Part shown: positions 1 to 57,539 of the stretch, one piece after another
Layout of the letters: each line of letters opens with the position of its first letter
Position numbering within the stretch: the first letter of the stretch is position 1
IMG/VR virus record: IMGVR_UViG_3300033067_000809
Span: 1-57,539 of that record
Length of the DNA: 57,539 nucleotides
Source of the DNA: a virus
Taxonomy: Duplodnaviria > Caudoviricetes
Direction: 5' to 3' (one strand)
Program-made: the position numbers and the translations under genes
Notes under the pieces: generated by a model
The model's input: only the letters and a program-made list of their open reading frames with translations
Told to the model about the DNA's origin: nothing
The model's database searches: none

Positions 1-146
1 CATGCTGTGTGCGCGGTACGTAGGGGGCGGGGGCGGGTGGGGTGGGGGGTGGGGGGCCTGTGGGGGGTAGGGGGGGGCCTGGACCTAGACAAGCCGCATA
101 GGGTGTAGGGCAGCAAGCCTGGCGCCGCAAGGAGCTAGACATGCTG
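1..146 (+). repeat. Left copy of terminal direct repeat
   Basis: Identical to 57393-57539 except that the last G-run is G8 here and G9 at the right end. Confidence 0.95.
23..77 (+). other. G-tract array (putative G-quadruplex)
   Basis: Eight G-runs of 5,5,3,4,6,6,6,8 nt with 1-5 nt linkers. Confidence 0.7.
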
Positions 147-160
147 CATACACTGAGCGG

Positions 161-500
161 TGGTCGTGCCGTTCGCTGGGTTCGCCCTGCAATACCTGTC
201 GCCTTATCACCGACGTGCCGCGTTTACGCCCGGCAAGGTATCAAGCGTGGCATTAAAATTCATAAGCGGGATAATCTGATGGTGTCAAGGCGACCTAATG
301 GGCGCGGAGAGTCGTCGAACGGCAGCAAAGCTGCACGTGTTCCCGTCCCGGCTAAGGCGCCGGGCCATTTTTGCGGGTTTAGGGGAAACCTGCCGGACAA
401 TGTCCGACTCCATCGTCGTAAAGCCGCGCAAGCGACAGACGTAAACAGGCCGGGCAAACCTGGGAGTCGGTTTCATTATGTATCCATGTCGGGTACATAT
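161..500 (+). ncRNA. Putative large structured RNA / leader
   Basis: No credible CDS; nested helices 167-175/316-324, 183-187/300-304, 198-205/287-294, 216-225/243-252, 347-352/359-364, 373-380/386-393, 404-411/463-470, 477-485/491-499; G-U pairs and a GCAA tetraloop. Confidence 0.65.
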
Positions 501-518
501 CAAGCCAAAGGAAAAACC

Positions 519-719
519 ATGTCCGCAGAACTGAACACGACTGAAAACGCATTGGATGCCGAGCTGCAAAGCTGGCTGGATGATGCAGACGTCGCATTCC
601 AAAAGCGTGAGGCTGATCGTCGCGCCCTTGAAAAACGGGCGCTGAAAAACCTTGGCAGCTGGGAGCAAATGAAGTTCGACCTGCGCCGCCACCTCTACAA
701 AAAGGCGATAGGCGCGTAA
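519..719 (+). CDS. Early hypothetical protein (66 aa, MSAELNTT...)
   Basis: AAAGGA SD before ATG 519; true start inside ORF 141..719. Confidence 0.8.
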   Translation: MSAELNTTENALDAELQSWLDDADVAFQKREADRRALEKRALKNLGSWEQMKFDLRRHLYKKAIGA

Positions 720-766
720 ACAGTTTAGACCATCGGTCAGCGTGCTGGCCTTTGGTGTGCACTGTT
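719..766 (+). promoter_or_regulatory. Conserved intergenic hairpin, copy 1
   Basis: Aligns without gaps to copies 2 and 3, with compensatory base changes. Confidence 0.8.
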
Positions 767-798
767 CTTTTTGCACATAACCGCCAAAGGAAAAAACC

Positions 799-1329
799 AT
801 GTCCGAAGTAACTATCTCCAAGACCATCCTGGCCGAAGCTTTCGCAAAGGCCCGAATCGAATTTGGAGTCGGCACCGAAGCTGACTTCACGGCGACCCGG
901 GTTAGTGCGAAGGGCAAGGCCACCACGCGCTCAGAGCTGGGCGTGGCCCTGTCGGGGAATAAGGTTGAGCGGGCGAAGCATGTGGCGCATATCGCGCTCA
1001 CCATGTGGGTCACGGGCAAGCTGCCGCAACTGTCGGCAGAGATTCGCCGCGTGTTCCCGAAGCTGGAGCAGGCTGTAAGCGCGCAAAACGCCGCGATCAA
1101 TAGCCTGATCAAGACTAATCCTGAGCTGGCCGGCAAGCTGCGGCTGATCAGTATCGACCGGCCTGCAAAGGCCGATATTGGCAAGATGTTCGATCTTGCC
1201 AAAGACCTGGCCGGCGCCGACAAAGGCGAAAAGGCCAAGATGATCGCCGTAGGGCAAGTCATCAATGAGTATGAAATCCGGGCCCGCGCCATTGCGCTCG
1301 AGCTGGCAGCGCTGGAGCAGACCGCGTAA
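799..1329 (+). CDS. Early hypothetical protein (176 aa)
   Basis: Same RBS block as the gene at 519 (GCCAAAGGAAAAA(A)CCATGTCCG); coding-like composition. Confidence 0.85.
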   Translation: MSEVTISKTILAEAFAKARIEFGVGTEADFTATRVSAKGKATTRSELGVALSGNKVERAKHVAHIALTMWVTGKLPQLSAEIRRVFPKLEQAVSAQNAAINSLIKTNPELAGKLRLISIDRPAKADIGKMFDLAKDLAGADKGEKAKMIAVGQVINEYEIRARAIALELAALEQTA

Positions 1330-1381
1330 GACGGTACAAACCATTGGCCAGCGTGCTGGCCCTTGTTGTGCATCGTCGCAC
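1330..1381 (+). promoter_or_regulatory. Conserved intergenic hairpin, copy 2
   Basis: 50/52 nt identical to 1671-1722. Confidence 0.85.
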
Positions 1382-1396
1382 GAAAGGAGGAACGCC

Positions 1397-1672
1397 GTGT
1401 CAAGACAGATTACAGTCCGCCGCGCCAAAACGCCCTACAAGCCCGAACCGAAGGTGTTTAGTGGGGGTACCGCCCCGACGCCCGAACGGGCCGTCGTAGA
1501 GGGGTCAGGGCGCGTTCTGCAGGGGGGTTTGCCCCCAGTGCCATACCGCACGCCCTGGGCGCGGGCCGACCTCACGGGGCGCGGGGCGCGGGAGCCGTTC
1601 GCTTCCAAGGCGGTCAAAGCCGAGTTCTATGCCGCCAGGCGGGATGCCGCCGGCGATCCGGTGGACCAATGA
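1397..1672 (+). CDS. Early hypothetical protein (GTG start)
   Basis: AAGGAGG SD upstream of GTG 1397. Confidence 0.7.
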   Translation: MSRQITVRRAKTPYKPEPKVFSGGTAPTPERAVVEGSGRVLQGGLPPVPYRTPWARADLTGRGAREPFASKAVKAEFYAARRDAAGDPVDQ

Positions 1673-1722
1673 CGGTTCAAACCATTGGCCAGCGCGCTGG
1701 CCCTTGTTGTGCATCGTCGCAC
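1671..1722 (+). promoter_or_regulatory. Conserved intergenic hairpin, copy 3
   Basis: 50/52 nt identical to 1330-1381; overlaps the upstream stop codon. Confidence 0.85.
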
Positions 1723-1741
1723 AGTGCCAAGAAAGATACAT

Positions 1742-1945
1742 ATGTCCGCACACCAAAAAAACCCGGCGCGCACACTGCAGCGCATCGATTGGACAGACTT
1801 AGAGTCTGTCATGGCCCAGGCTCTGCGCTTTGGGCCTGGCATGGTCGTCGTCAAGCATGATACCCGCGCAAACTTCAACATTACACACGCGGAGCGCCCA
1901 GACTTGTGGGACAGGCCTGACGTGACCGTACTGTTCCGCACATGA
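1742..1945 (+). CDS. Early hypothetical protein (67 aa)
   Basis: ATG 1742 after the hairpin and a purine-rich leader. Confidence 0.65.
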   Translation: MSAHQKNPARTLQRIDWTDLESVMAQALRFGPGMVVVKHDTRANFNITHAERPDLWDRPDVTVLFRT

Positions 1946-2530
1946 AGGGGGTGGTACATACGTATGTATAGGGCAAACCCTATACACATGCCAAGCTGTC
2001 CATATGTATGCCGCAGGGCATACATATTTAGGCACAATCAGGCAGACACCATGAGGTTGTCTTATTACCTGTCTTAATAGGCTCTCTAGAGGAGAAACCA
2101 CCCTTTTTAGACCCCCTATTAAGACAATAAGACAATAAGACAGCAAAAACGGACCAGAAACAGTTTTGGCCCTTTTTCTGCGAGCCTATGACGCGCTGCA
2201 GCGCGTCATGTGTATGGTCGTTACGCATAAGACCGAACGCACACATGGACCCCCATAAATCCTGCCTCATCCAAACCGGGTCTGCCTGAATACACCCAAA
2301 AACGCACTTTTCCCCTGTAAAATCATGGGGTTAGCTTTAAGACAGCCCGGTTTTCGCCTTTTGCCTGATTACCCCAAACCCTGTCTTATTGCTTAAATTT
2401 TGAGCATATGTATGCCTTTTGAGCCCCGCCCCGTGCGCCCCTGGTGTCTGATCCGCCGGCACCACCTCAGAAATCATACGTATGCGCAAGCATAGCCCCT
2501 CCGTATGTATATTTCATACGTAACCCCACC
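1946..2530. other. Non-coding iteron/palindrome region, candidate replication origin or control region
   Basis: TAAGACA/TGTCTTA repeats, several perfect inverted repeats, lower GC, no credible CDS. Confidence 0.5.
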
Positions 2531-2542
2531 TTGGAGACCTCC

Positions 2543-2854
2543 ATGACCCCCAAAATCACGACTTGGACCCTCGCCATCGGCGTGGCCGCCATCCTCGCCG
2601 CCAGCTACCTGATCGACGGACCGAGCGAGCTGGAGATGGCGCAGGCGCAGGCTGCCGACCTGGCTGAGGCGCAATCGCAGGCCCAGTACGTATCAAAACT
2701 GACCCGCGAGTGCCACCGCTTGCGCGGCCCCAGCGCCGAGCTGCTGCAGATTAGAGAATCCGGCGATTACGTATGCCGCGTGGTCGAGATCGATCCGGTA
2801 CCTGCCGAGATCCTCCATCGATACGCATCCCTGGCCCTGGGGGCTCGGCCGTGA
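2543..2854 (+). CDS. Hypothetical protein with N-terminal TM/signal segment
   Basis: GGAG SD; WTLAIGVAAILAASYLI hydrophobic stretch. Confidence 0.75.
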   Translation: MTPKITTWTLAIGVAAILAASYLIDGPSELEMAQAQAADLAEAQSQAQYVSKLTRECHRLRGPSAELLQIRESGDYVCRVVEIDPVPAEILHRYASLALGARP

Positions 2855-3057
2855 CGACGGTTATCACTGGGGCTGCCCAGATCCAACGAGCCCGCTTAGT
2901 GACCCTGCGGGCTGCACTGCGCCTGGAGATTGCCGGCCTGCGCCGGCGCGGCCCCAGCGCCTACGCCATCCTCAAGCATGAGCTCGAGCTGCCTCGCGCC
3001 AGCCGCCAGGAAGTCCTTGCTGCCCTGAACCTTACCCTGTCCAACGCACTGGAGTAA
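2851..3057 (+). CDS. Hypothetical protein
   Basis: GTGA overlap with the upstream stop. Confidence 0.7.
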   Translation: MTTVITGAAQIQRARLVTLRAALRLEIAGLRRRGPSAYAILKHELELPRASRQEVLAALNLTLSNALE

Positions 3058-29470: not shown

Positions 29471-32400
29471 TCACTCGCCGGCCGCCTGCATGGCTGCAGC
29501 TTTTTCGTTGGGCCGGTACTGGACACCACCGATCGTCTGCTTCTCCCGCCTGGCCTGCTCTTGCGGCGCCTTGAGCAGGTTCGACACTGGCTGCGGCTGG
29601 AACCCTTCCGCCTGGCGGGCTCGCTGCAGCTTGCTCCAGGATTCGCGGGCGTCTTGCATGGCGCCAGTGTCGCGATCGCGCGCGGCGCGGGCGTAGGCGT
29701 TCTTGATCTTGCTGGCCCGCTCGGTGAACCGGTCTTTGGTGTCCTGGAACCGTTGGCGTTTCTCGTAGGTCTCGGACATGCCGGGCGTTGTGAAGCTCAG
29801 GGCCTTCCAGAACGTCTCCAGCTCGCTGACGTCTTTGGGCGGCAGGATCACGTCGCCGTTGCGCCGGGTCATGCCCTCGTCCGCTATGCGGTAGGCCTGC
29901 ATGGCAGATGACAACCCCTTGGGCATCAGCATCTCCAGGCCCTTGTACCAGTCGCCGTTCTTCATCAGCCCCAAGCCATCCAGACCTCGCACCACCATGC
30001 CGCCGCCAGCACCGCCCACGAGCTGACCGAAAGCCTCGAACTGGCCCGAGGGCGTTGACAGGTCCGCATTGCTGAACGGCATGACCGAGAGTGCGTTGCC
30101 CGCGCCGACGCTGCCGGAGAGGTCCAGGCCGCCGAGCGTCGGCGCGCCGCGCATGACCAGGCGAGCCCAGTCCTTGTCACCGATAGCACCCTCGATTTCC
30201 GCAGCCAGGTCGTACTCTTTGTCCTCATCGCCCAGCAGGGCCGCAGCCAAGAACTGCGCTGCGGCGAAGCCGGGGAGGCCGCGCAGGCCGGCGAAAGCCG
30301 CCGTGTGGAGCAGCGAGTAGGCCAGGGCCTTGGTCGCTGCGCGTTGCTCCTGCGTGGTGAATCCGGCGCTGCGCAGCATCTTGGCGTAGTACGACAGCTG
30401 GATGAGCTGGAACTTGCGGAACTGCAGCGCCACCTTGCCGACGCTCGTGTTGAACATGCGCGGGGCGTTGAACCGGCCATAGTCGCCGTGAGTCTCCGTA
30501 AGTATCCGGTCAGCGTAGTCAGTGGCCGCAGCGGTGTCGCCGCCGTTGCGCGCCAGCTCCAGCCGGTAGGCAGCCAGCGCCGTGGACATCCGGTTGAGGA
30601 TCTCACCCTTTTGCACCAGCATGCGCAGGCCCTTGTTGACCTTGTTCAGCCGGTCCTTGACCGGGCCGGCGCCTTCGACGCGGAACTCGCCCAGCTCGGT
30701 CTCCATGCCGACGTCGATGCGCCCGCGGTTTGCCAGCTCCTGGATGGCGTTCTTCTCGCCGGCCGTGTTGCCCACCAGGCTGTAATCGAACTGCCGGCCA
30801 GAAAGCAGTTTGGTCGACATGATCATGGCCTTGAGGTCTTTGTATGCCTCGAACTGAGCGCTCGACGCAGCTGCATACCCATGCTTGCCTGCCATCACCG
30901 GTACCGACATCATCCACGGCTGCGTCAAGTTGGCCAGGTAGTAGGCCGGGCTAGTCATCAGGTAGTAGACCGAAGACAGGTGCAGCAGCTTGCGCAGCGC
31001 GGGGGTGCTGGAGTCCTCCATCGACTGGGCGTAGCGCGCGGTCAGTTCGTTGAAGAGTTCCGCTTTGCGCGCGCGGTTGCCGCCCCGGTCGCGCTCCTTG
31101 CGCATAGCCTGGATGCTGTCTTGGATTTTGCGGTTGTACTCCACAGACGCCAGGAAGTTAGCATCGGCCCGCCCCTGGGTGGTGAACGACCGCAGCATGT
31201 CGACTTCACCGGCAACCCCCCGGCGCTTCATCTCCGTTTTGCGGGCGCTGTTCTCGGCCAGGGCCTCGAGGTAGAGATCGGTCACCATGCGGCGCAGCTT
31301 TGCAGCCCCCGCTTCGCCGGCGGCCTGCTTGGCTTCTACTTGCGATTGCAGCTTAGTCAGCGCGCGCAGCACCGAGTCCCCGCCGAACAGCGCGTCCATG
31401 TTGGCCTCCCGCTCGAAGAAGTCCACCGCGTCGCCATCCCGACCAAAGTGCCCCTGGGCCTGCAGCTGGCGCGCCAGCTCTCGAGCCTCTGCACGCCCCT
31501 CCGTAAAGCTGACGTGGTAGTGGTCGGCCTGCTTCTGCATCGTCTGGATCTGCTTTTGGTCCCCGGCGGCCTCCGCAGCTCTGTAGGCCTGCGACTTCGC
31601 GACCACCGCATAGGTGCCCATGCGCTTGATGGGCGCATACGGGCGACCTTCCTGCGTGGCAAACAGGTCCTTGAACCGGGTGATGACCGCCTGCTTCTCG
31701 CCTTTCAGCTTGGCTTCAAGCGCTGCGTTACCGTCAGCGGCGGCCGCAGCGATCAAGGCGTCGTACTCCGTGTTGGTGTGGTCCATGACCGTTTTCTTTT
31801 TCAGGGCGAGCATCTTGTCACCGTGGTCAAACACCGCTTTGACGAAGACCTGCGCTTCGTCACTCAAGGCATCGAAGCGGTCCTGCATGTCGCGGTCGGC
31901 GTATTTGCCGTACCCCCACTTGCCCTCACGGGTGGAGTCGAAAATGAACTGGTTGGCGGTGTCAGCCTGGCCCTTCTCCGGCACCAGCCCGCGGTCTTTT
32001 TCGGGCACCAGCGCATACAGGTCGGCGATCTTCTCGACCTCACGTTCCAGCTCGCGCGCTTTGGTGTCGCGCCGGGCCAGGTTGTCGCCGAAGTTCTTGG
32101 CGGCTTGGATGCCGGCCTGGCTGGCGAACCCAATCAGGTCGCTGGTGAACACCACACGGTCCAGCGCCTTGTTACCCCAGCTGCCCATGGTGTCGAGCGA
32201 ATCGCGCACCGCAGGCTGCACCTGGGCGGGGAGCTGGTTGATAGCCCGCTGGACTTGGCCGGCCGTGGCTTTCTTGGGCACCGACATCTTCACGGTGTTA
32301 TCGGGCGCCGACGCAGCGCGGACGTCGCGCGACACAATCTCTGCCGCACCGTAGGCCAAATCCACCACGTCCTGAGCGGTCATAGTGTCCAGCTCACCGA

Positions 32401-35400
32401 GGCCGATCTTGGCGATGGCCTGCTTGAGCAGGCGCACCACAGTGCTGAACCAGCGAGCCAGATCACCCTTCATGCCCATCGCAGTCGGGTCGATACCGTT
32501 CTCCACAGCAGCGCTGACAAAATAAGCCACAGTCTCCGAATTGACCTGGGCATTAGGCGTGCCTGCCGATACCACGCGGGTCAGGGCTTCCTGTGCCAAC
32601 GTGGACTCGAGCGAGCCGTCATTAAGGTCGGCCCAATTGCGAACCTGCGCGGCCAGCGAAGCAAACTCACCCGCATCCAGCAGTTCTTCGATTCCGAGGT
32701 GAACGCCGATTTCATGCAGCAGAACCGATCGGGCGTTGCCCGGGGCAATGTTGCCAGCCACCAGGTAGGCCTTGCCACGCCACACGAATCCGTTGGGCTG
32801 TTCACCTTTGAGCGCACGGCGCGCGCCGGGCGGCAGTTGCTCCACCGACTGCACGATCGACACCAGGTCGGGAGTCAGCGACAACCCCAGCTTGGCGATC
32901 TCGGTTTTCACACGCGCTACGTTAGATCCACCGCGCTCAACGGTGCTCACCATCTGCTGCGTGCGCTCGTCTTGGGCTGCGGCAGACTTGTCGTCGATGA
33001 TGGTGGCGCCCTCAGCGATCTTGTCCAAGAACTGCTTCATCGTCTCGTTGGGCAGGTACTTGGAGCCCTTGAGCGAGTAGTAGAACTTGCGCATCGCCGC
33101 GCCCAGCCGGGAGAAGAACTGCTCGACCACACCCACTGGCTTGTCCGAAGAGACCGCCCAGCGCGAGACCTGGTCGGCGTACCATTCGCTGAAGCTCTTC
33201 CAGTATGGAGTCAGTTCGTTGGCCTGCATGCCGGCCGGGATCGAGGTGGCGCGGCCAGTCGCACGCGCGCGCAGCTCGGCAACGAACTCGCGGGCTGTCC
33301 TCTTGGCGTTGGCGGCCACGAACTTGTCATGCTCGGCGCGGATAGCCTTCTGCGTGTCCTTGTCGGCGTTGTTGAACGCCTCGCGCTCGTGGATGTGGCC
33401 GAGCTCATGCGCCAAAGTCTCCAACATTTTGAGGGTGCTGCTGCCCTTGGTAAACGCAATGTAGTAGTCGGCGCCCACCTTGCGCGCAGATCCAGCCTCA
33501 TTGGCGTTCAGAGCCGCGGAGCCAATGGCGCGATGTGAGCCTGTGAACTCACCCTTGTCAGCGCGCGCATCCTCGATAGTGGTGACATACACGTTGGTCT
33601 TGACGCCGAGCTGGTTCTTCCAGCCCCGCAGGACACCAGTGACGCGCGGGTCGACTCCGGCTGAGAATGACAGGCCGTCAGCATCAAATCTGATGAATGG
33701 GTCGGTGGCGTGCTTCTCAGCAGCGGCAGCCTCCAGCTCCTTGACTTTGGCCACCAGCATGGCTTTCTGTTCGGGGGTGAACAGGCTGCCGGTGTAGCGG
33801 TCGACACCAACAGACGTGCGGGAGTCCCCCATGGCGCCAGAGTAAACCGGCTGCCCGTTGAGGGCTGAGTACCCCAGGATCAGCGCCATGTCACCTTCTT
33901 GCCACGCCACCATGCCGCCTAAGTTCTCGGCGTGCAACTCAGCTTTCGCACGCTGCGCTGCAGTGGTGGCCTCTTTACGCACCTCAGCGGCCGGCTGCAT
34001 ACGCTGCATCTCGCGGCGCACGTCGGCGGGAGTCCAGTTGTCCTCACCAAACTCGACAAAGTCCGTCTGCTGCGCGCGGGTCAGCTCGGCAAACTTGGGC
34101 GCTCCAGGAATGCCAGTGGCGACAGCGTCCCAGGCCTCGGCGGCCAGCTCGCGCTGAGTCTTGATGACCGCCGGAGCGCTTACTTTTTCGGCTTGGGGGC
34201 GGCTTTCGGTTTTGCCGCCTTTTCCGGCAGGCTTTTCGGCGCTGGGTACTTCTTGTCCCACTTCGCCGCCAGCTCCGGCTTCTGGCTGTGCAGGAACTTT
34301 TGCTGCGCTTTCGACTTGTACGGCATTGTCAACTCCTCGGGCTTTCAGTAGGTCGGTGATTTCACCAGCGAGCTTGGTGTTCTTGATGGTGTCGCGAACG
34401 TAGGGCAGCAAAGTCTGCAGGTCTTCGGTCGACAGCGGCTCGAGCTTGCGGTTCGCAGCTTTCCATCGGGCCTGGGCAGCCTGCTGCTCGGGCGTGGCCT
34501 TGGACTCAGCAACCACGGGTGTGCGGACGGCCTTCGGTGGTTTGGCGCCGACTTCCTCTTTGCGTTTCTTGGCCTCGGTCCACGCCTCTCGCAGAATCCT
34601 ATTCTGCTCTTGGATGGCGGACGCTTCCGCTTCCGTCACAGCCGCCGCCATGCCTTCCTTAGCTTTCGCAGCCGCGTCTCGGGTAGCTCGAGCGGCACTG
34701 CGGAACTCCGGCCCCATACTGCGAAGCTGGGCGGTAGCAGTGCGCAGCTCTTGGATTTGACGCTCCAGTGTTGCCAGCTTGCCGATCGCACGATCAACTA
34801 CAGTGCCGGACGCTTCTTGTGACCACCAGCGGTCGGTGCCGTCACTCACGCTCATACCAGAGCCTTCGTCCGCATCAAATTCAATGCCGATTTTGGACAT
34901 CTCCTTGGATGCGCCAGCCGCGTCGGTGCGAGCGTCTGCATCTTCCAGCTGCTCTATCTGGCCCTTGAGGTCAGCCAGCTGCTGTACTTGCTCTGGGGTT
35001 GGCTGCTCTACATTCTGCAAGTCCTTGTATGCCTTTTGGGCTTTGCTCAGCGCAGTTGCATCCCCACGAGATTTGGCTCGGATGCCCAGTAGAGACAACA
35101 CTTGAGATTCCGTGTAGCCCAGTCGAATACCGGCCTTCACCATCTTCGGCTCGTCAATGCGCGACTTCGCCGTGTGGTAGTTGATGCCCATGGCTTTGGC
35201 CACGGCTTCCAACACGATAGTTTTGGACCCCTCTGGTGCGATCTGGCGGGCTTTCAGGAGCTTCTTGGTCTGCGCAATGAACTCGTCTTGATTGCCTGCC
35301 CCCCTAGACGTGCGGAACATCTCGCGGAAGATCGCGTCAGCCGCGGCTTCGTCCATGGGCATCTCTCGCGCGTCAGCAAGCGCCACGCCAACGTCGGCGT

Positions 35401-37675
35401 CAGCAACCTGCGCTTCCAGTTCGGCAGCCAGACCTTTCTGGCCGGCGGTTTGTGCGATTTCTGCAGCGATGCGCAGGTCTTCATCCTTAGGCAGGTTCAA
35501 CGCTGCGCGCTGCGGAGAGATGCTGGCTGGGGCTTCGCCCTCGGGAGCTACATACGCAGCCGGCGCGCCAACCACAGGTTGCACTCGGCGCTTGCGAGAC
35601 ACGACCGGCTCCACGGGTGCTGCAGGAGCAGGTGTCGACGGCGCGCGCGGTGCGGCTAGGTCCGCAGGTGCTGCAGGAGCCACAACGGGGGTGGCGGCCG
35701 CAGGCGTTGGGCGTTCCAAGCCGACAGGCGTGGTCTGGGGCGCAGCCACAGGAGTCGCAGCCGGATATCCTTGCTCTTCAAATCGCTTAATGTCCGCCGG
35801 TGACCTAATCAGACCAGCGTCGAAAGCTGACCTGGCGCGCACCAGCACAGGGTCTTTGACGCCAGAAATGGTGCTTTTTCCTTGCTGCAAAGCCGTAAAT
35901 GCGGCGTCGTAGAAATTAGTCGATATCGCACCGGCCAGCCCGACAAACGCGCGGTCAAGACCGGTGGTACTTTGTTTTGCGCCGGCGGTTGGCGTAGCCG
36001 GCAAGGCCAAACTGGATGGCGCAGTCGCTGGCGCGCGCGGCGCAGTCAGGTCCACCGGTGCAGAACCGGCCGGAGCTGCAGGCTGAAGAACACCCTGACG
36101 AAACACGCGCGGCGCGGGGGCGGCCGGGGCAACCGTGGTGGGTGCCTGTGGGGCTTGCAAACCAACTTGTGGCGGCGCTGCAGCTGCGGCCCGCTCAACA
36201 GCCCATTGATCGAGCGCCTTGATGACTGAGTCCAGTTTCCCCCTGGAGCTCAAGCCTTTGCCGGAGGCCGCCATATTCCAGAACGCGTCCATCTCCGGGA
36301 TCGTCGGGTTGATCCCGTTGGTACCCATGACGTCCCACAACTCGCGCGCCAGCTTGGTGGGCTTCTTGCCGCCCATGCGCGCCAGGATCTCTGCGTCGAT
36401 GTCGACGCCTTGGTCCGCAGTGCCCGCTTGGTCGATGCTCGGGGCTTGAGGCCCCTCGTTCGGGCGCATGAACCCATTCGGCGGCTGTGGGCCTGAGTTT
36501 GGCGGCACAAACCCCGGGCGGGGCATCGGACCTTGAATGGCCTCGAGCTGCCAGAGCTGCTGCAGGTCGTCCAACTTGATGGCGCCGTTGCGCAGCATAA
36601 TCGCGTCGGCCATGGACAGCTCGCGCTCATGTCCAGCCATGCTGCTGGTGTCCTGGACGAACTGCCCGCTGCCTCCTTCGAACAGGTTGCCTACGGCCTT
36701 GGCGTAGTTCTTGTCTGTAGCGTAGAGCGTCTCGTCGACACCAAGCGCCTTGTTGAACCAGTCTTGCGTGAATGGTTGCACTTCGGGTTTGAGCTGGTCA
36801 GGTGCGACGCCGACCGCCTGTTGTGTACCGCGAGCAGCGAGGTCCGTAGCGCCGCCAGCATCTGCGGCAGCTGATCGGCGCCAACCACCAAGACCACCAC
36901 TCACTGCACCACCAAGCAAACCGCCAGCAACTAACGACTCCTGGTACCGGCTAACAGCATCAGGATCGAACATGGTCTCAGAGCTCACAGCGGTTCGCCC
37001 CGCCTGGTTTGCAAACTCTTGCAGCGTTTCAGCGGTGCCTTCAGCCAGCATCCCTTTGGCACCGGTGGCTGCGGTGCGTGCGACCCCGCCGGTAAACCCC
37101 GTCAGCTTGTCCAGTTGGCCGGCGCCGAGTGCGTCCAGAGCGCGAACCCCAGTGCCCAGAGAGCGTCGGGCAAACATGCCCTCTATGCCGAAGCGATCGG
37201 CCGCGCCATATGCCAGGCCCAACGGTATTGCGGAAGTCAGATCGGTGCGGCCGCCAGCCTCACGCTGGTTTTGGAGGACGTCGCCGAGCCCTAGTGCAGA
37301 GCCTGCAGCCCACGCAGCGCCAGGGCCGCCGATTAGGCCTGCTGCTGCCACCGGGATCATGGACGGCAAAGATTGTGCGCCAACTCCAGCCAGCCACTGG
37401 GCGGTCTCCCCAAGCCCCTGGGCTTCGGCAAAAGTCCTCGGTGCGCCGGTCTGCTCGAAGTAGCGCTGTGCGTCGGCGTTTGCAATGGCCTGCTGCTCTC
37501 GGCGCCAGTCGCCAGAAGACAGCCCGACAGCTTCGCCAATACCCAGCAGGCCGGCGCCCAGGCTCCGAGCTCCAGAGCCCAGCATTGTGCCGAGTCCAAC
37601 GCTCTGGGGGACTTCTGCGGGGGTGCCACCCCCGAACATGGCTTCAAATTCTTCGGGAGAAAGCTGCTTAGGCAT
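29471..37675 (-). CDS. Giant internal virion/ejection protein (2734 aa) with two zincin-like motifs
   Basis: Last late gene; Gly/Ala-rich N-terminus; AHELGH and LHEIGVH motifs. Confidence 0.8.
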   Translation of the reverse strand: MPKQLSPEEFEAMFGGGTPAEVPQSVGLGTMLGSGARSLGAGLLGIGEAVGLSSGDWRREQQAIANADAQRYFEQTGAPRTFAEAQGLGETAQWLAGVGAQSLPSMIPVAAAGLIGGPGAAWAAGSALGLGDVLQNQREAGGRTDLTSAIPLGLAYGAADRFGIEGMFARRSLGTGVRALDALGAGQLDKLTGFTGGVARTAATGAKGMLAEGTAETLQEFANQAGRTAVSSETMFDPDAVSRYQESLVAGGLLGGAVSGGLGGWRRSAAADAGGATDLAARGTQQAVGVAPDQLKPEVQPFTQDWFNKALGVDETLYATDKNYAKAVGNLFEGGSGQFVQDTSSMAGHERELSMADAIMLRNGAIKLDDLQQLWQLEAIQGPMPRPGFVPPNSGPQPPNGFMRPNEGPQAPSIDQAGTADQGVDIDAEILARMGGKKPTKLARELWDVMGTNGINPTIPEMDAFWNMAASGKGLSSRGKLDSVIKALDQWAVERAAAAAPPQVGLQAPQAPTTVAPAAPAPRVFRQGVLQPAAPAGSAPVDLTAPRAPATAPSSLALPATPTAGAKQSTTGLDRAFVGLAGAISTNFYDAAFTALQQGKSTISGVKDPVLVRARSAFDAGLIRSPADIKRFEEQGYPAATPVAAPQTTPVGLERPTPAAATPVVAPAAPADLAAPRAPSTPAPAAPVEPVVSRKRRVQPVVGAPAAYVAPEGEAPASISPQRAALNLPKDEDLRIAAEIAQTAGQKGLAAELEAQVADADVGVALADAREMPMDEAAADAIFREMFRTSRGAGNQDEFIAQTKKLLKARQIAPEGSKTIVLEAVAKAMGINYHTAKSRIDEPKMVKAGIRLGYTESQVLSLLGIRAKSRGDATALSKAQKAYKDLQNVEQPTPEQVQQLADLKGQIEQLEDADARTDAAGASKEMSKIGIEFDADEGSGMSVSDGTDRWWSQEASGTVVDRAIGKLATLERQIQELRTATAQLRSMGPEFRSAARATRDAAAKAKEGMAAAVTEAEASAIQEQNRILREAWTEAKKRKEEVGAKPPKAVRTPVVAESKATPEQQAAQARWKAANRKLEPLSTEDLQTLLPYVRDTIKNTKLAGEITDLLKARGVDNAVQVESAAKVPAQPEAGAGGEVGQEVPSAEKPAGKGGKTESRPQAEKVSAPAVIKTQRELAAEAWDAVATGIPGAPKFAELTRAQQTDFVEFGEDNWTPADVRREMQRMQPAAEVRKEATTAAQRAKAELHAENLGGMVAWQEGDMALILGYSALNGQPVYSGAMGDSRTSVGVDRYTGSLFTPEQKAMLVAKVKELEAAAAEKHATDPFIRFDADGLSFSAGVDPRVTGVLRGWKNQLGVKTNVYVTTIEDARADKGEFTGSHRAIGSAALNANEAGSARKVGADYYIAFTKGSSTLKMLETLAHELGHIHEREAFNNADKDTQKAIRAEHDKFVAANAKRTAREFVAELRARATGRATSIPAGMQANELTPYWKSFSEWYADQVSRWAVSSDKPVGVVEQFFSRLGAAMRKFYYSLKGSKYLPNETMKQFLDKIAEGATIIDDKSAAAQDERTQQMVSTVERGGSNVARVKTEIAKLGLSLTPDLVSIVQSVEQLPPGARRALKGEQPNGFVWRGKAYLVAGNIAPGNARSVLLHEIGVHLGIEELLDAGEFASLAAQVRNWADLNDGSLESTLAQEALTRVVSAGTPNAQVNSETVAYFVSAAVENGIDPTAMGMKGDLARWFSTVVRLLKQAIAKIGLGELDTMTAQDVVDLAYGAAEIVSRDVRAASAPDNTVKMSVPKKATAGQVQRAINQLPAQVQPAVRDSLDTMGSWGNKALDRVVFTSDLIGFASQAGIQAAKNFGDNLARRDTKARELEREVEKIADLYALVPEKDRGLVPEKGQADTANQFIFDSTREGKWGYGKYADRDMQDRFDALSDEAQVFVKAVFDHGDKMLALKKKTVMDHTNTEYDALIAAAAADGNAALEAKLKGEKQAVITRFKDLFATQEGRPYAPIKRMGTYAVVAKSQAYRAAEAAGDQKQIQTMQKQADHYHVSFTEGRAEARELARQLQAQGHFGRDGDAVDFFEREANMDALFGGDSVLRALTKLQSQVEAKQAAGEAGAAKLRRMVTDLYLEALAENSARKTEMKRRGVAGEVDMLRSFTTQGRADANFLASVEYNRKIQDSIQAMRKERDRGGNRARKAELFNELTARYAQSMEDSSTPALRKLLHLSSVYYLMTSPAYYLANLTQPWMMSVPVMAGKHGYAAASSAQFEAYKDLKAMIMSTKLLSGRQFDYSLVGNTAGEKNAIQELANRGRIDVGMETELGEFRVEGAGPVKDRLNKVNKGLRMLVQKGEILNRMSTALAAYRLELARNGGDTAAATDYADRILTETHGDYGRFNAPRMFNTSVGKVALQFRKFQLIQLSYYAKMLRSAGFTTQEQRAATKALAYSLLHTAAFAGLRGLPGFAAAQFLAAALLGDEDKEYDLAAEIEGAIGDKDWARLVMRGAPTLGGLDLSGSVGAGNALSVMPFSNADLSTPSGQFEAFGQLVGGAGGGMVVRGLDGLGLMKNGDWYKGLEMLMPKGLSSAMQAYRIADEGMTRRNGDVILPPKDVSELETFWKALSFTTPGMSETYEKRQRFQDTKDRFTERASKIKNAYARAARDRDTGAMQDARESWSKLQRARQAEGFQPQPVSNLLKAPQEQARREKQTIGGVQYRPNEKAAAMQAAGE

Positions 37676-56594: not shown

Positions 56595-57108
56595 TGGGGA
56601 TTTCCTTGGTTTCTGCGTCAATCGTAACCGGGGGTGCTGCCTGCGTGTTGCCGGCCGACAGGCTGATGGAGTGCCCGCCGCCCATGTCGATCGTGATCTG
56701 GAACCCTGGGCCGGCCGTGCTGGTGCGCTCTTCCTTGGGCTCCAGCCCCCCGGCTTTGATCAGCGTCTTCAGGACGTCGTGCTTCTGGGCCAGGCTGGCT
56801 TCCGAGCTGGATGCGGACAAGTAGACTTGGTCCAGCAGATCGCCGGCCATCCATGCGGCCTTGGCTTTGAATGTGACTCCGTTGCGGTCGAACTCATTGC
56901 GCTTGGCCGCCACCATCAGCTGGAACCACGGCTGCGCCTCAAGCTCCTGGTACTGCTGGATGCTCAGTCCGTGCCGTGCCGCCACCACCAGGTCGTCTTC
57001 CAGCCCCAGCGCTATGCTGGCCACCATTTCGTCGGACAACTGAGGAAAAGACTTGGTGCTGGGCTTGTACTCCAGCGGCTCGTCGTCGATGTCCATGTCT
57101 GGTGTCAT
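56587..57108 (-). CDS. Putative terminase small subunit
   Basis: Upstream of TerL; helical body with GFQITIDMG C-terminal strand. Confidence 0.6.
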   Translation of the reverse strand: MTPDMDIDDEPLEYKPSTKSFPQLSDEMVASIALGLEDDLVVAARHGLSIQQYQELEAQPWFQLMVAAKRNEFDRNGVTFKAKAAWMAGDLLDQVYLSASSSEASLAQKHDVLKTLIKAGGLEPKEERTSTAGPGFQITIDMGGGHSISLSAGNTQAAPPVTIDAETKEIPNA

Positions 57109-57278
57109 TGCTCGGCCTTCTTGGATGCGTCAGCTCTGTCCATGGCCTTGAGCAGACCGACCAGTGCGATGCGTATGATCTCGGAAACCGTGACGCCTTT
57201 GCGCGTGGCCAAGGCCTGGACTCTGTCGAACAGCTCGGGTTGGAACACCATGTTCCAGCGTCGCGTGCTTTTTTTCAT
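57105..57278 (-). CDS. Ribbon-helix-helix (CopG/Arc-like) protein, 57 aa, not in the ORF track
   Basis: MKKSTRRWNMVFQPELFDRVQALATRKGVTVSEIIRIAL...; AGGA SD; ATGA coupling to TerS. Confidence 0.8.
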   Translation of the reverse strand: MKKSTRRWNMVFQPELFDRVQALATRKGVTVSEIIRIALVGLLKAMDRADASKKAEQ

Positions 57279-57392
57279 ATGTATCCTGGGTAGTTTATAC
57301 GTAACGCATTCTAAGCCGTTTTTGTTTTGTGTGTATGTTTGCCGTTTTTACTACTTTACGTATTGGGCGATACGTATCTTTTTTATTTTTTT

Positions 57393-57539
57393 CATGCTGT
57401 GTGCGCGGTACGTAGGGGGCGGGGGCGGGTGGGGTGGGGGGTGGGGGGCCTGTGGGGGGTAGGGGGGGGGCCTGGACCTAGACAAGCCGCATAGGGTGTA
57501 GGGCAGCAAGCCTGGCGCCGCAAGGAGCTAGACATGCTG
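57393..57539 (+). repeat. Right copy of terminal direct repeat
   Basis: Matches 1-146 with one extra G. Confidence 0.95.

What the first reader, a model, noticed from the sequence alone, without database searches (positions are those of the whole stretch)
161..500. About 340-nt highly structured RNA as the first transcribed element of the genome
Seen: a gene-free stretch that folds into a nested long-range domain: TGCCGTTCG 167-175 / CGAACGGCA 316-324; CGCCC 183-187 / GGGCG 300-304; GTCGCCTT 198-205 / AAGGCGAC 287-294 plus CACC/GGTG; and TGCCGCGTTT 216-225 / AAGCGTGGCA 243-252. Hairpins follow at 347-364 and 373-393. Next is a multibranch domain closed by CCGACTCC 404-411 / GGAGTCGG 463-470 that contains a GCAA tetraloop, then a 9-bp hairpin at 477-499. 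G-U pairs favour an RNA over a DNA structure. Competing stems at 322-334 and 394-406 hint at switching. I do not recognise it as tRNA, tmRNA, an intron or a known riboswitch. Inference: an undescribed phage ncRNA (decoy, sponge, anti-defence or antitermination RNA) expressed first on infection.
Basis: partly seen in the sequence, partly recalled or inferred. Interest (0 to 1): 0.82.

Follow-up and report, generated by a model that had tools for sequence, protein, structure and literature searches.

The report
Structured leader RNA of phage early genes

Summary
Comparison with about 60 related uncultured phage contigs settles more. Four elements are conserved through compensatory changes on the + strand. 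They are a 5' hairpin (156-173), a hairpin at 373-393, a three-way junction at 404-470 (98.9-100% of cells paired, 11-13 of 16 pairs changed on both sides) and a long hairpin at 469-506 just before the ribosome site.

The nested long-range domain (167-324) has no homologue. It clashes with the conserved 5' hairpin and is mostly broken in the one natural variant seen.

No Rfam family matches the window or 20 relatives' loci.

The relatives' leaders carry rrn/lambda-type boxA motifs at fixed places, four of them the perfect GCTCTTTAACAA. In this window those motifs are decayed.

Best reading: a modular, cis-acting 5' leader of the early operon that works in Nus/boxA-type antitermination and RNA processing, not a proven free-standing ncRNA. 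The three-way junction is a new RNA motif. I rate it a new variant of a known kind, of moderate to high interest.

The parts
1..146 (.). Copy of the contig's other end (57393-57539). It holds the G-rich tract and the first promoter-like repeat.
   Evidence: 99% identity; the only difference seen is 8 versus 9 G in one run. It is either a short terminal repeat or an assembly overlap.
23..81 (+). G-rich tract ending in GGGGGGCCTGTGGGGGG. It is conserved in the closer relatives and replaced by a C-rich tract in the distant ones.
85..160 (+). Two ~26-nt direct repeats (85-110 and 135-160, CTAGACA.GC.GCATA...). Every relative has its own version at this place. They may be promoters or operators, but this is not settled.
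   Evidence: exact copies only here and in the end copy; relatives; no sigma-70-type rightward promoter was found.
156..173 (+). Conserved 5' hairpin: stem 156-162/167-173, loop GUCG.
   Evidence: 28 distinct sequences, 92.3% of cells paired, 7 of 7 pairs with changes on both sides, 0 of 500 shuffles as high, slid controls 32-58%.
174..189 (+). Possible local hairpin GC(U)GGG-UUCG-CCC(U)GC, at the place where group-B relatives have a small covarying hairpin.
   Evidence: Read from the sequence and from relatives by eye. ViennaRNA gives it p 0.00, so it is weak.
196..213 (+). UGUCGCCUUAUCACCGAC, the positional counterpart of the relatives' first boxA (UGUUCUUUACCGAC, GAUCUUUAAAAA, GCUCUUUAACAA). 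It is decayed here.
   Evidence: In the window's leader there is no match to GYTCTTTAANA within 2 mismatches.
216..252 (+). It is specific to this phage lineage.
   Evidence: p 0.69-0.98. (X6 copy): 221 gives G-U, 250 breaks a pair, and the loop 226-242 carries 6 changes.
251..268 (+). CAUUAAAAUUCAUAAGCG, the counterpart of the relatives' second boxA-like motif TC[ATG]TTAAAAATT.
   Evidence: the motif is in 33 of 45 distinct leaders, 180-260 nt after the G tract; the X6 copy inserts an A after 254, which gives the canonical CATTAAAAATT.
269..366 (+). About 98 nt present here but absent between the same two landmarks (..AGCG and UUUU) in L081, L082 and L175-type leaders.
   Evidence: comparison by eye; terminator-like site; one X5 contig joins 152 to 337, with what lies between unknown.
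373..393 (+). Conserved hairpin GCGGG-UUUAGGGGAAA-CCUGC, flanked by UUUUU and CGG.
   Evidence: 10 relatives with loop UUUG.GUGAAG.AA. 92.6% of cells are paired even with the window's row out of register, and 5 of 5 pairs changed on both sides; 372-401 is unchanged in the variant contigs.
404..470 (+). Conserved three-way junction. P1 is 404-411/463-470. P2 is 414-417/438-441 plus the GCAA hairpin 423-436. The linker UAAA is 442-445. P3 is 446-449/459-462, with GGCA in its loop.
   Evidence: (MAFFT alignment, 6 sequences): 98.9% paired, 11 of 16 pairs changed on both sides, 0 of 500 shuffles; 14 strong matches, 99.1% paired; 11 further matches, 100% paired; 447 A>G together with 461 T>C in natural variants.
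469..506 (+). Long hairpin: core 477-485/491-499, outer helix GGUUU/AAGCC. The U run after P1 (471-473) is part of it.
   Evidence: the same hairpin-in-helix is predicted in most of 46 leaders with quite different sequences, median z -4.0; p 0.98.
505..719 (+). Ribosome site AAAGGAAAAACC and the first gene (66 aa, 519-719).
   Evidence: the same site recurs at 785-798; an X9 contig joins 511 to 792, so that variant lacks this gene.

Best explanation
Bases about 156-518 are the untranslated 5' leader of the phage's rightward early operon. The leader belongs to a modular family found in an uncultured clade of freshwater and wastewater podovirus-like phages.

Shown:
- The leader RNA is read from the + strand.
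- It keeps a 5' hairpin, a hairpin at 373-393, a three-way junction at 404-470 and a long hairpin just before the ribosome site.
- Relatives carry one or two boxA motifs at fixed places between these structures.

Inferred:
- The nascent leader loads host Nus factors (NusB/NusE on boxA), as in rrn operons and lambda nut sites. Transcription can then cross 350-650 nt of untranslated RNA and the terminator-like hairpins that follow each early gene.
- The three-way junction and the long hairpin serve as a further protein- or polymerase-binding module and as a processing and stability site next to the start codon.
- In this window the boxA motifs are decayed and a lineage-specific insert of about 98 nt (269-366) is present. 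How far this particular leader still uses Nus factors is therefore open.
For: Layout:
- TerS and a small RHH gene point left. Next come a G tract, two repeats, 310-870 nt without a gene, a ribosome site and the first gene. This layout is seen in all relatives examined.

Covariation, with G-U pairs on the + strand only:
- 5' hairpin.
- Hairpin 373-393.
- Three-way junction.
- Hairpin before the ribosome site.

Natural variants:
- Positions 353-516 are kept, with compensatory 447/461, in contigs whose flanks differ.

boxA:
- The E. coli rrnH leader reads tgctctttaacaatttatcag. The published consensus is GYTCTTTAANA (PMC5725501, passages read).
- 10 of 45 distinct leaders match it within 1 mismatch on the + strand, and 0 on the - strand. 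Shuffles give a mean of 1.3 and a maximum of 5.
- Four further distinct leaders have the perfect GCTCTTTAACAA 10-13 nt after the 5' hairpin, plus a second GATCATTAA[AC]AA before the junction.

Terminator-like hairpins:
- They lie at 347-364 and after each early gene at 735-750, 1346-1361 and 1687-1702. The scan found 9 sites against 3.5 expected.

Polymerase:
- No phage RNA polymerase was found. The largest ORF is DarB-like, so host polymerase is the likely enzyme.
Against: - The window's own leader has no match to the boxA consensus within 2 mismatches. None of the first 45 leaders has a perfect match.
- The leaders are related to each other, so the counts are not independent events.
- No transcription start, end or RNA level is known. 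No RNA run was listed, and no sigma-70-type rightward promoter was found.
- The role of the three-way junction is wholly inferred.
- The host is unknown, so its own boxA could not be compared.
- rrn-type Nus complexes are described as acting against Rho (abstract of PMC4807359), not against the intrinsic-type hairpins seen here.
Confidence: 0.5

Rival explanations
1. The three-way junction (two hairpins closed by P1, about 67 nt) is itself a protein-independent antiterminator. It would bind the transcribing RNA polymerase, as HK022 put RNA does, and boxA would be secondary.
For: - Size and place resemble put: put is ~70 nt, has two stem-loops and lies downstream of early promoters, with putR about 270 nt from its start (PMC9378689, passages read).
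- The unpaired bases UAAA and GGCA stay invariant while all stems vary.
- Terminator-like hairpins follow downstream.
Against: - No sequence likeness to put could be tested, because no model or sequence of put was in hand.
- put has no closing helix.
- Many relatives replace the junction by a plain GC hairpin at the same place, so it is not essential to the leader family.
Confidence: 0.15
2. A free-standing phage ncRNA (decoy, sponge or anti-defence RNA), either ended at 347-371 or at the U run after 470, or cut out of the leader by processing.
For: - A good terminator-like hairpin lies at 347-364, followed by CCAUUUUU.
- A U run follows P1 in all junction-bearing leaders.
- The long hairpin 469-506 could be a processing site (inference).
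Against: - The hairpin at 347-364 lies in an insert that relatives lack.
- The U's at 367-371 are the conserved flank of the next hairpin.
- The U run after P1 pairs into the next hairpin.
- The conserved structures run on to the ribosome site.
- No target or partner is known.
Confidence: 0.15
3. A ligand- or protein-sensing attenuator. The junction would be an aptamer whose P1 plus the U run ends transcription before the first gene unless a signal is present.
For: - A three-way junction with conserved junction and loop bases sits directly ahead of a U run and a ribosome site.
Against: - Very few bases are invariant (AU, UAAA, GGCA).
- The P2 loop varies freely (GCAA, UUCG, GAUCAU, UUG).
- No riboswitch family matches.
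- The U run is short in the window (UUU).
Confidence: 0.07
4. A DNA-level element (replication origin, packaging site or operator region) whose hairpins form in DNA.
For: - It lies between the two divergent gene arms, next to the terminase genes, the end overlap and a G-rich tract.
- Direct repeats at 85-160 and palindromes near the RHH gene in relatives look like protein-binding sites.
Against: - Covarying helices keep G-U pairs that would be C-A on the other strand: 15 G-U against 2 non-standard of 234 cells, and 25 G-U of 196 cells.
- The structures abut the ribosome site.
- The boxA motifs are on the + strand only.
Confidence: 0.05

Closest known systems
rrn operon leader (boxB-boxA-boxC) and the Nus-factor antitermination complex
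   Same: - A hairpin is followed by a single-stranded boxA near the 5' end of a long untranslated transcript.
- Four relatives carry the exact E. coli 12-mer GCTCTTTAACAA.
- The second motif, GATCATTAAAAATTTAT, resembles GCTCTTTAACAATTTAT beyond the core.
- A long helix lies near the end of the leader. In rrn the corresponding helix is the RNase III stem; this last point is recalled, not tested.
   Different: - It stands before protein genes of a phage.
- The window's own motifs are decayed.
- No boxC was shown.
- The extra conserved hairpin and the three-way junction have no rrn counterpart that I know of.
Lambda nutL/nutR sites (boxA, boxB, N protein)
   Same: - A cis-acting RNA signal sits just after the early promoters and lets polymerase pass terminators.
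- It uses boxA and host Nus factors (abstracts of PMC2800207 and PMC2724277, search listing).
   Different: - Here the hairpin comes before boxA.
- Its loop is (G/A)UCG, not the lambda GAAAA type (recalled).
- No N-like protein was identified.
- The leader is several times longer.
HK022 put RNA
   Same: - About 70 nt, two stem-loops, in the early leader, acting in cis on polymerase (PMC9378689, passages). This is the nearest analogue for the 404-470 junction.
   Different: - put has no closing helix and no boxA.
- No sequence relation was tested.
- The function of the junction is unknown.
RNase III sites in phage early mRNAs (T7 early region, lambda N leader); recalled, no paper read
   Same: - Long imperfect hairpins sit between the leader or genes and the next ribosome site.
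- A hairpin pair recurs before each early gene here: 469-506, and the repeats at 719-770, 1330-1381 and 1671-1722.
   Different: - No cleavage data exist.
- The helices here have 9-21 bp, often with G-U pairs.
Large ornate ncRNAs found in phages (GOLLD, ROOL)
   Same: - Structured RNAs carried by phages and found by comparative genomics (listing and abstract of 10.1101/2024.12.08.627333).
   Different: - Those are free-standing RNAs of about 600-800 nt (sizes recalled) and are in Rfam.
- No Rfam family matches here.

Membership tests
boxA-type (Nus factor) antitermination signal | Single-stranded boxA matching GYTCTTTAANA (PMC5725501) | tested here: not met
   In the window's leader there is no match within 2 mismatches. 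The positional counterparts 196-213 and 251-264 are decayed. In relatives the feature is met: 10 of 45 match within 1 mismatch, and there are perfect matches in L311, L326, L305 and L317.
boxA-type (Nus factor) antitermination signal | Binding of NusB/NusE and read-through of terminators | not testable with these tools
   This needs binding and transcription assays. The host is unknown.
Lambda-type nut site | boxB hairpin 3' of boxA with a GNRA-like pentaloop, bound by an N protein | tested here: not met
   The conserved hairpin lies 5' of boxA and has a (G/A)UCG loop. No N-like protein was sought beyond Pfam and PHROG scans of the first two genes.
rrn-type leader | Order hairpin, then boxA, then boxC | tested here: inconclusive
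   Hairpin then boxA is met in relatives. A boxC-like element was not tested formally.
HK022 put RNA | About 70 nt, two stem-loops, downstream of an early promoter | tested here: inconclusive
   Size and two hairpins fit 404-470. However, a closing helix is present, and no put sequence or model was at hand for comparison.
Any Rfam 15 family (riboswitches, tRNA-like, tmRNA, introns, known phage RNAs) | Score at or above the family's gathering threshold | tested here: not met
   There were 0 matches in the whole window. There were 0 in 20 relatives' loci. At E up to 10, 1-900 gave only isrO at 13.9 bits against a threshold of 42, and CbSR2 at 9.8 against 300. ARAGORN found 0 genes.
Intrinsic terminator (347-364 plus U run) | GC-rich stem-loop directly followed by a U tract, kept among relatives | tested here: inconclusive
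   The stem and the T run meet the scan's rule. The hairpin lies in an insert that relatives lack.
Protein-coding gene (ORF 141-719) | Frame kept, changes biased to third codon positions, homologues present | tested here: not met
   The X6 copy has five 1-nt indels in 203-254, and its substitutions fall 6/5/4 over codon positions. There is no Pfam hit. Relatives have no matching ORF.

The most novel reading that the evidence does not exclude
The leader is a phage-made imitation of a ribosomal-RNA operon leader joined to a new polymerase- or factor-binding RNA, the UAAA/GGCA three-way junction. Together these would form a previously undescribed RNA-based way for a lytic phage to take over the host's fast, termination-resistant rRNA transcription mode for its first genes, with swappable RNA modules that differ between phage lineages.
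Probability: 0.2. Interest if true: 0.8.

Novelty: new variant of a known kind. Interest (0 to 1): 0.62.

Why it matters
- Early-gene control in uncultured freshwater phages is almost unknown. This work gives a whole family of leaders (about 60 contigs) with helices proven by covariation, an RNA motif not in Rfam (the three-way junction), and boxA signals identical to the bacterial rRNA one.
- That makes a concrete claim testable: that lytic phages outside the lambdoid group recruit the host Nus machinery through RNA.
- The mosaic exchange of leader modules between phages is also a clean natural experiment on which RNA parts are interchangeable.

Tried and rejected
**DNA searches that found no close relative**
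- Megablast and blastn of 1-3000 and 100-1400 against 50,697 phage records found no match.
- tblastn of the 66-aa gene and of TerS against phages found no match.
- The 176-aa second gene has no relative in IMG/VR.
- The DNA of 141-800 has no significant match in 20 related IMG/VR genomes (best E 0.034).
- The exact 20-mer from 375-394 gave 0 hits in viral contigs and 0 in metagenome contigs.
- The 5' domain therefore has no homologue in the collections I could reach.

**The closest relative**
- By TerS (89%) this is L087. Its leader lies off the fetched piece and could not be fetched.

**Sequencing runs**
- No RNA holder was listed.
- Parts of 1-1500 without contig cover in runs X5, X6, X9 and X12 are not used as evidence.

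**Bacterial genome scan**
It says nothing on the host or its boxA.

**Promoters**
- The sigma-70 reading of the AT-rich motif is rejected. There is no conserved -35, and the five-A form lacks the final T of a -10 (by eye).
- The - strand promoter-like site at 503-475 is not kept at that spacing in relatives (by eye), so I take it as chance.
- A phage RNA polymerase reading of the repeats at 85-160 is rejected for now, because no polymerase-like ORF was found.

**Alignments**
- MAFFT alignments A1, A4 and A5 misplaced the 5' strands and were not used. A3 was used.
- The window's row is out of register in A10 and in the 3' part of A6.
- Several rows (L082, L083, L095, L103, L112, L118, L122, L162, L169) had a wrongly called first gene. 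They are included in the median.

Supplementary Table 2 of PMC5725501, on the critical boxA positions, may bear on how decayed the window's motifs are.

**Papers**
- PMC5725501 and PMC9378689: passages read.
- PMC2800207, PMC2724277, PMC4807359, PMC3177189, PMC10250234 and 10.1101/2024.12.08.627333: search listing and start of abstract only.
- I found no description of this leader or junction in searches. These searches were aimed at boxA, put and structured-RNA surveys, so this is not proof that it is unpublished.

Full report
**What the window is.** The window is a whole IMG/VR virus record of 57,539 nt. Its first 146 nt recur at its end (99% identity); the copies differ by one G in a G run. 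Genes run rightward from 519 to about 29 kb and leftward from about 57.3 kb.
- The leftward arm starts with a small RHH-type gene, TerS and TerL.
- The virion genes are distantly like those of Bcep22-like and 933W-like podoviruses (about 31-36% identity).
- The 2,734-aa ORF has a DarB-like end.
- No tRNA, tmRNA or Rfam family is present.
- The finding therefore sits in the divergent region between the two arms, directly ahead of the first rightward gene (66 aa, 519-719). That gene has the same ribosome site as the next gene.

**The observation.** As a single sequence the evidence is thin.
- The + strand folds 2.1 sd better than shuffles, with 3 of 100 shuffles as good. The - strand gives 1.0 sd.
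- Which long-range pairs are predicted depends on where the RNA is cut.

**Relatives.** DNA searches found nothing close.
- Protein searches with a virion protein and with TerS brought in 57, 24 and 72 loci. Six IMG/VR genomes have TerL 77-81% identical.
- All the relatives examined share one layout. TerS and RHH point left. Then come an AT-rich stretch, a G-rich tract ending in GGGGGGCCTGTGGGGGGTGG, two lineage-specific direct repeats, 310-870 nt without a gene (median 547), a ribosome site and the first gene.
- The leaders are mosaics. Blocks are shared between some lineages and replaced in others.
- Public runs show the same at close range. Positions 353-516 recur, about 10% diverged, in contigs whose flanks differ.
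- One X5 contig joins 152 to 337. One X9 contig lacks the first gene. One X6 contig is about 10% diverged in 178-336 but far less downstream.

**Conserved structures.**
1. A hairpin follows the second repeat directly (window 156-173). In 28 distinct sequences 92.3% of cells pair, all 7 pairs show changes on both sides, and slid controls give 32-58%. The rows were picked with a pairing criterion, which inflates this count somewhat.
2. The hairpin at 373-393 covaries in 10 relatives: 5 of 5 pairs changed on both sides.
3. The three-way junction at 404-470 is the strongest case.
   - On a plain MAFFT alignment of six very different sequences, 98.9% of cells pair and 11 of 16 pairs change on both sides. 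No shuffle out of 500 reaches this, and slid controls give 33-44%.
   - A covariance model built from it found eight further strong matches among 87 sources (99.1% paired).
   - After a pattern scan of IMG/VR, the model found eleven more in 23 new loci (100% paired).
   - The invariant bases are the linker UAAA, GGCA in the P3 loop, and a U run after P1.
4. The last 60 nt before the ribosome site fold into a 9-21 bp hairpin inside an outer helix, in most of 46 leaders with unrelated sequences (median z -4.0).
5. G-U pairs are common in these helices and non-standard pairs are rare. The structure therefore belongs to the + strand, which points to RNA read toward the genes.

**The 5' nested domain.**
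- The 3' strands lie in a stretch of about 98 nt (269-366) that L081-, L082- and L175-type leaders lack between the same landmarks.
- H1 also uses bases of the conserved 5' hairpin.
- In the X6 copy, changes at 250, 289 and 322 break pairs, 221 gives G-U, and three indels fall in the 5' strand of H3. By my count stems change about as often as loops.
- I cannot exclude that these helices form in this lineage, but nothing supports them beyond the sequence itself.
- Hairpin 216-252 is thermodynamically robust but lineage-specific.
- The hairpin at 347-364 plus U run meets the terminator rule but lies in the same insert.

**boxA.**
- An AT-rich motif TC[ATG]TTAAAAATT sits 180-260 nt after the G tract in 33 of 45 distinct leaders. 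Many leaders have a second copy just after the 5' hairpin.
- The E. coli rrnH leader, fetched for comparison, reads tgctctttaacaatttatcag. The published consensus is GYTCTTTAANA (PMC5725501).
- Within 1 mismatch, 10 of 45 leaders match on the + strand and none on the - strand. Shuffles give a mean of 1.3 and a maximum of 5.
- Within 2 mismatches, 30 match against 5 on the - strand. Shuffles give a mean of 14.5 and a maximum of 21.
- The more distant junction-bearing contigs found later have a C-rich tract in place of the G tract. Three of those tested by tblastn have TerS about 34% identical; two short pieces gave no TerS hit.
- In four of these distinct leaders the perfect GCTCTTTAACAA lies 10-13 nt after the 5' hairpin, and a second GATCATTAA[AC]AA lies before the junction.
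- The window itself has only decayed counterparts (196-213; 251-264, which the X6 copy restores to CATTAAAAATT).

**Reading.**
- The order hairpin, boxA, more structure, long helix, then start codon is that of an antitermination leader. It is closest to the rrn leader, and to lambda nut in purpose.
- Long untranslated RNA and terminator-like hairpins after each early gene give such a signal something to do.
- The function is inferred. No transcript data exist, no promoter was recognised, and the host is unknown.
- The junction may be a put-like polymerase binder, a protein site or an attenuator. A free-standing RNA produced by termination or processing is not excluded.

**Verdict.** This is a real, conserved, structured leader RNA. 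Its 3' half is firmly supported and its 5' long-range fold is not. It is not in Rfam, and it is best filed as a new variant of boxA-type antitermination leaders that carries a new three-way-junction motif.

Noticed in passing
window 1-146 and 57393-57539: The contig ends overlap by 146 nt. The overlap starts at CATGCTG (a spot conserved in relatives after a T run) and ends at another CATGCTG inside the second repeat. It is either a short terminal repeat or an assembly overlap.
   Followed up: partly
window 23-81; relatives L081-L182; L305, L311, L317, L326, L331: The G-rich tract (able to form G-quadruplexes) is conserved upstream of the leader in the closer relatives. In the distant junction-bearing relatives the same place holds a C-rich tract on the leader strand.
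   Followed up: no
window 719-770, 1330-1381, 1671-1722: A repeat family lies after each early gene. It consists of hairpin GGCCAGCG(T/C)GCTGGCC plus CTTGTTGTGC, then a second small hairpin and the next ribosome site. This is the same two-hairpin plan as the end of the leader.
   Followed up: partly
window 511-792 (run X9): A natural variant joins 511 to 792 at the repeated ribosome-site block (495-528 is similar to 775-808), so it lacks the 66-aa first gene. Another variant (X5) has a different gene after 516.
   Followed up: no
window 1397-1672: The third early gene encodes a small basic protein with the motif LQGGLPP.PYR...REPF. The motif is kept in L081 and L082 although the genes before it differ. 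It is a candidate regulator.
   Followed up: no
window 57105-57278 (-) and 57280-57392; L081, L142, L146: A 57-aa RHH-type gene points away from the leader. Relatives have palindromes such as GTGTGTATACACAC in the AT-rich spacer. A leftward sigma-70-like site lies at 57335-57308.
   Followed up: no
window 29471-37675 (-): A 2,734-aa ORF whose last ~770 aa match DarB-like antirestriction families. The first 1,900 aa match nothing in Pfam or PHROGs.
   Followed up: no
L086, L092, L096, L099, L100, L104, L114, L116, L120, L129, L137 (alignment A8): The ~640-nt leaders of another lineage form strings of hairpins. 22 of 79 predicted pairs have changes on both sides, and two alternative middle blocks occur. 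This may be a large structured RNA in its own right.
   Followed up: partly
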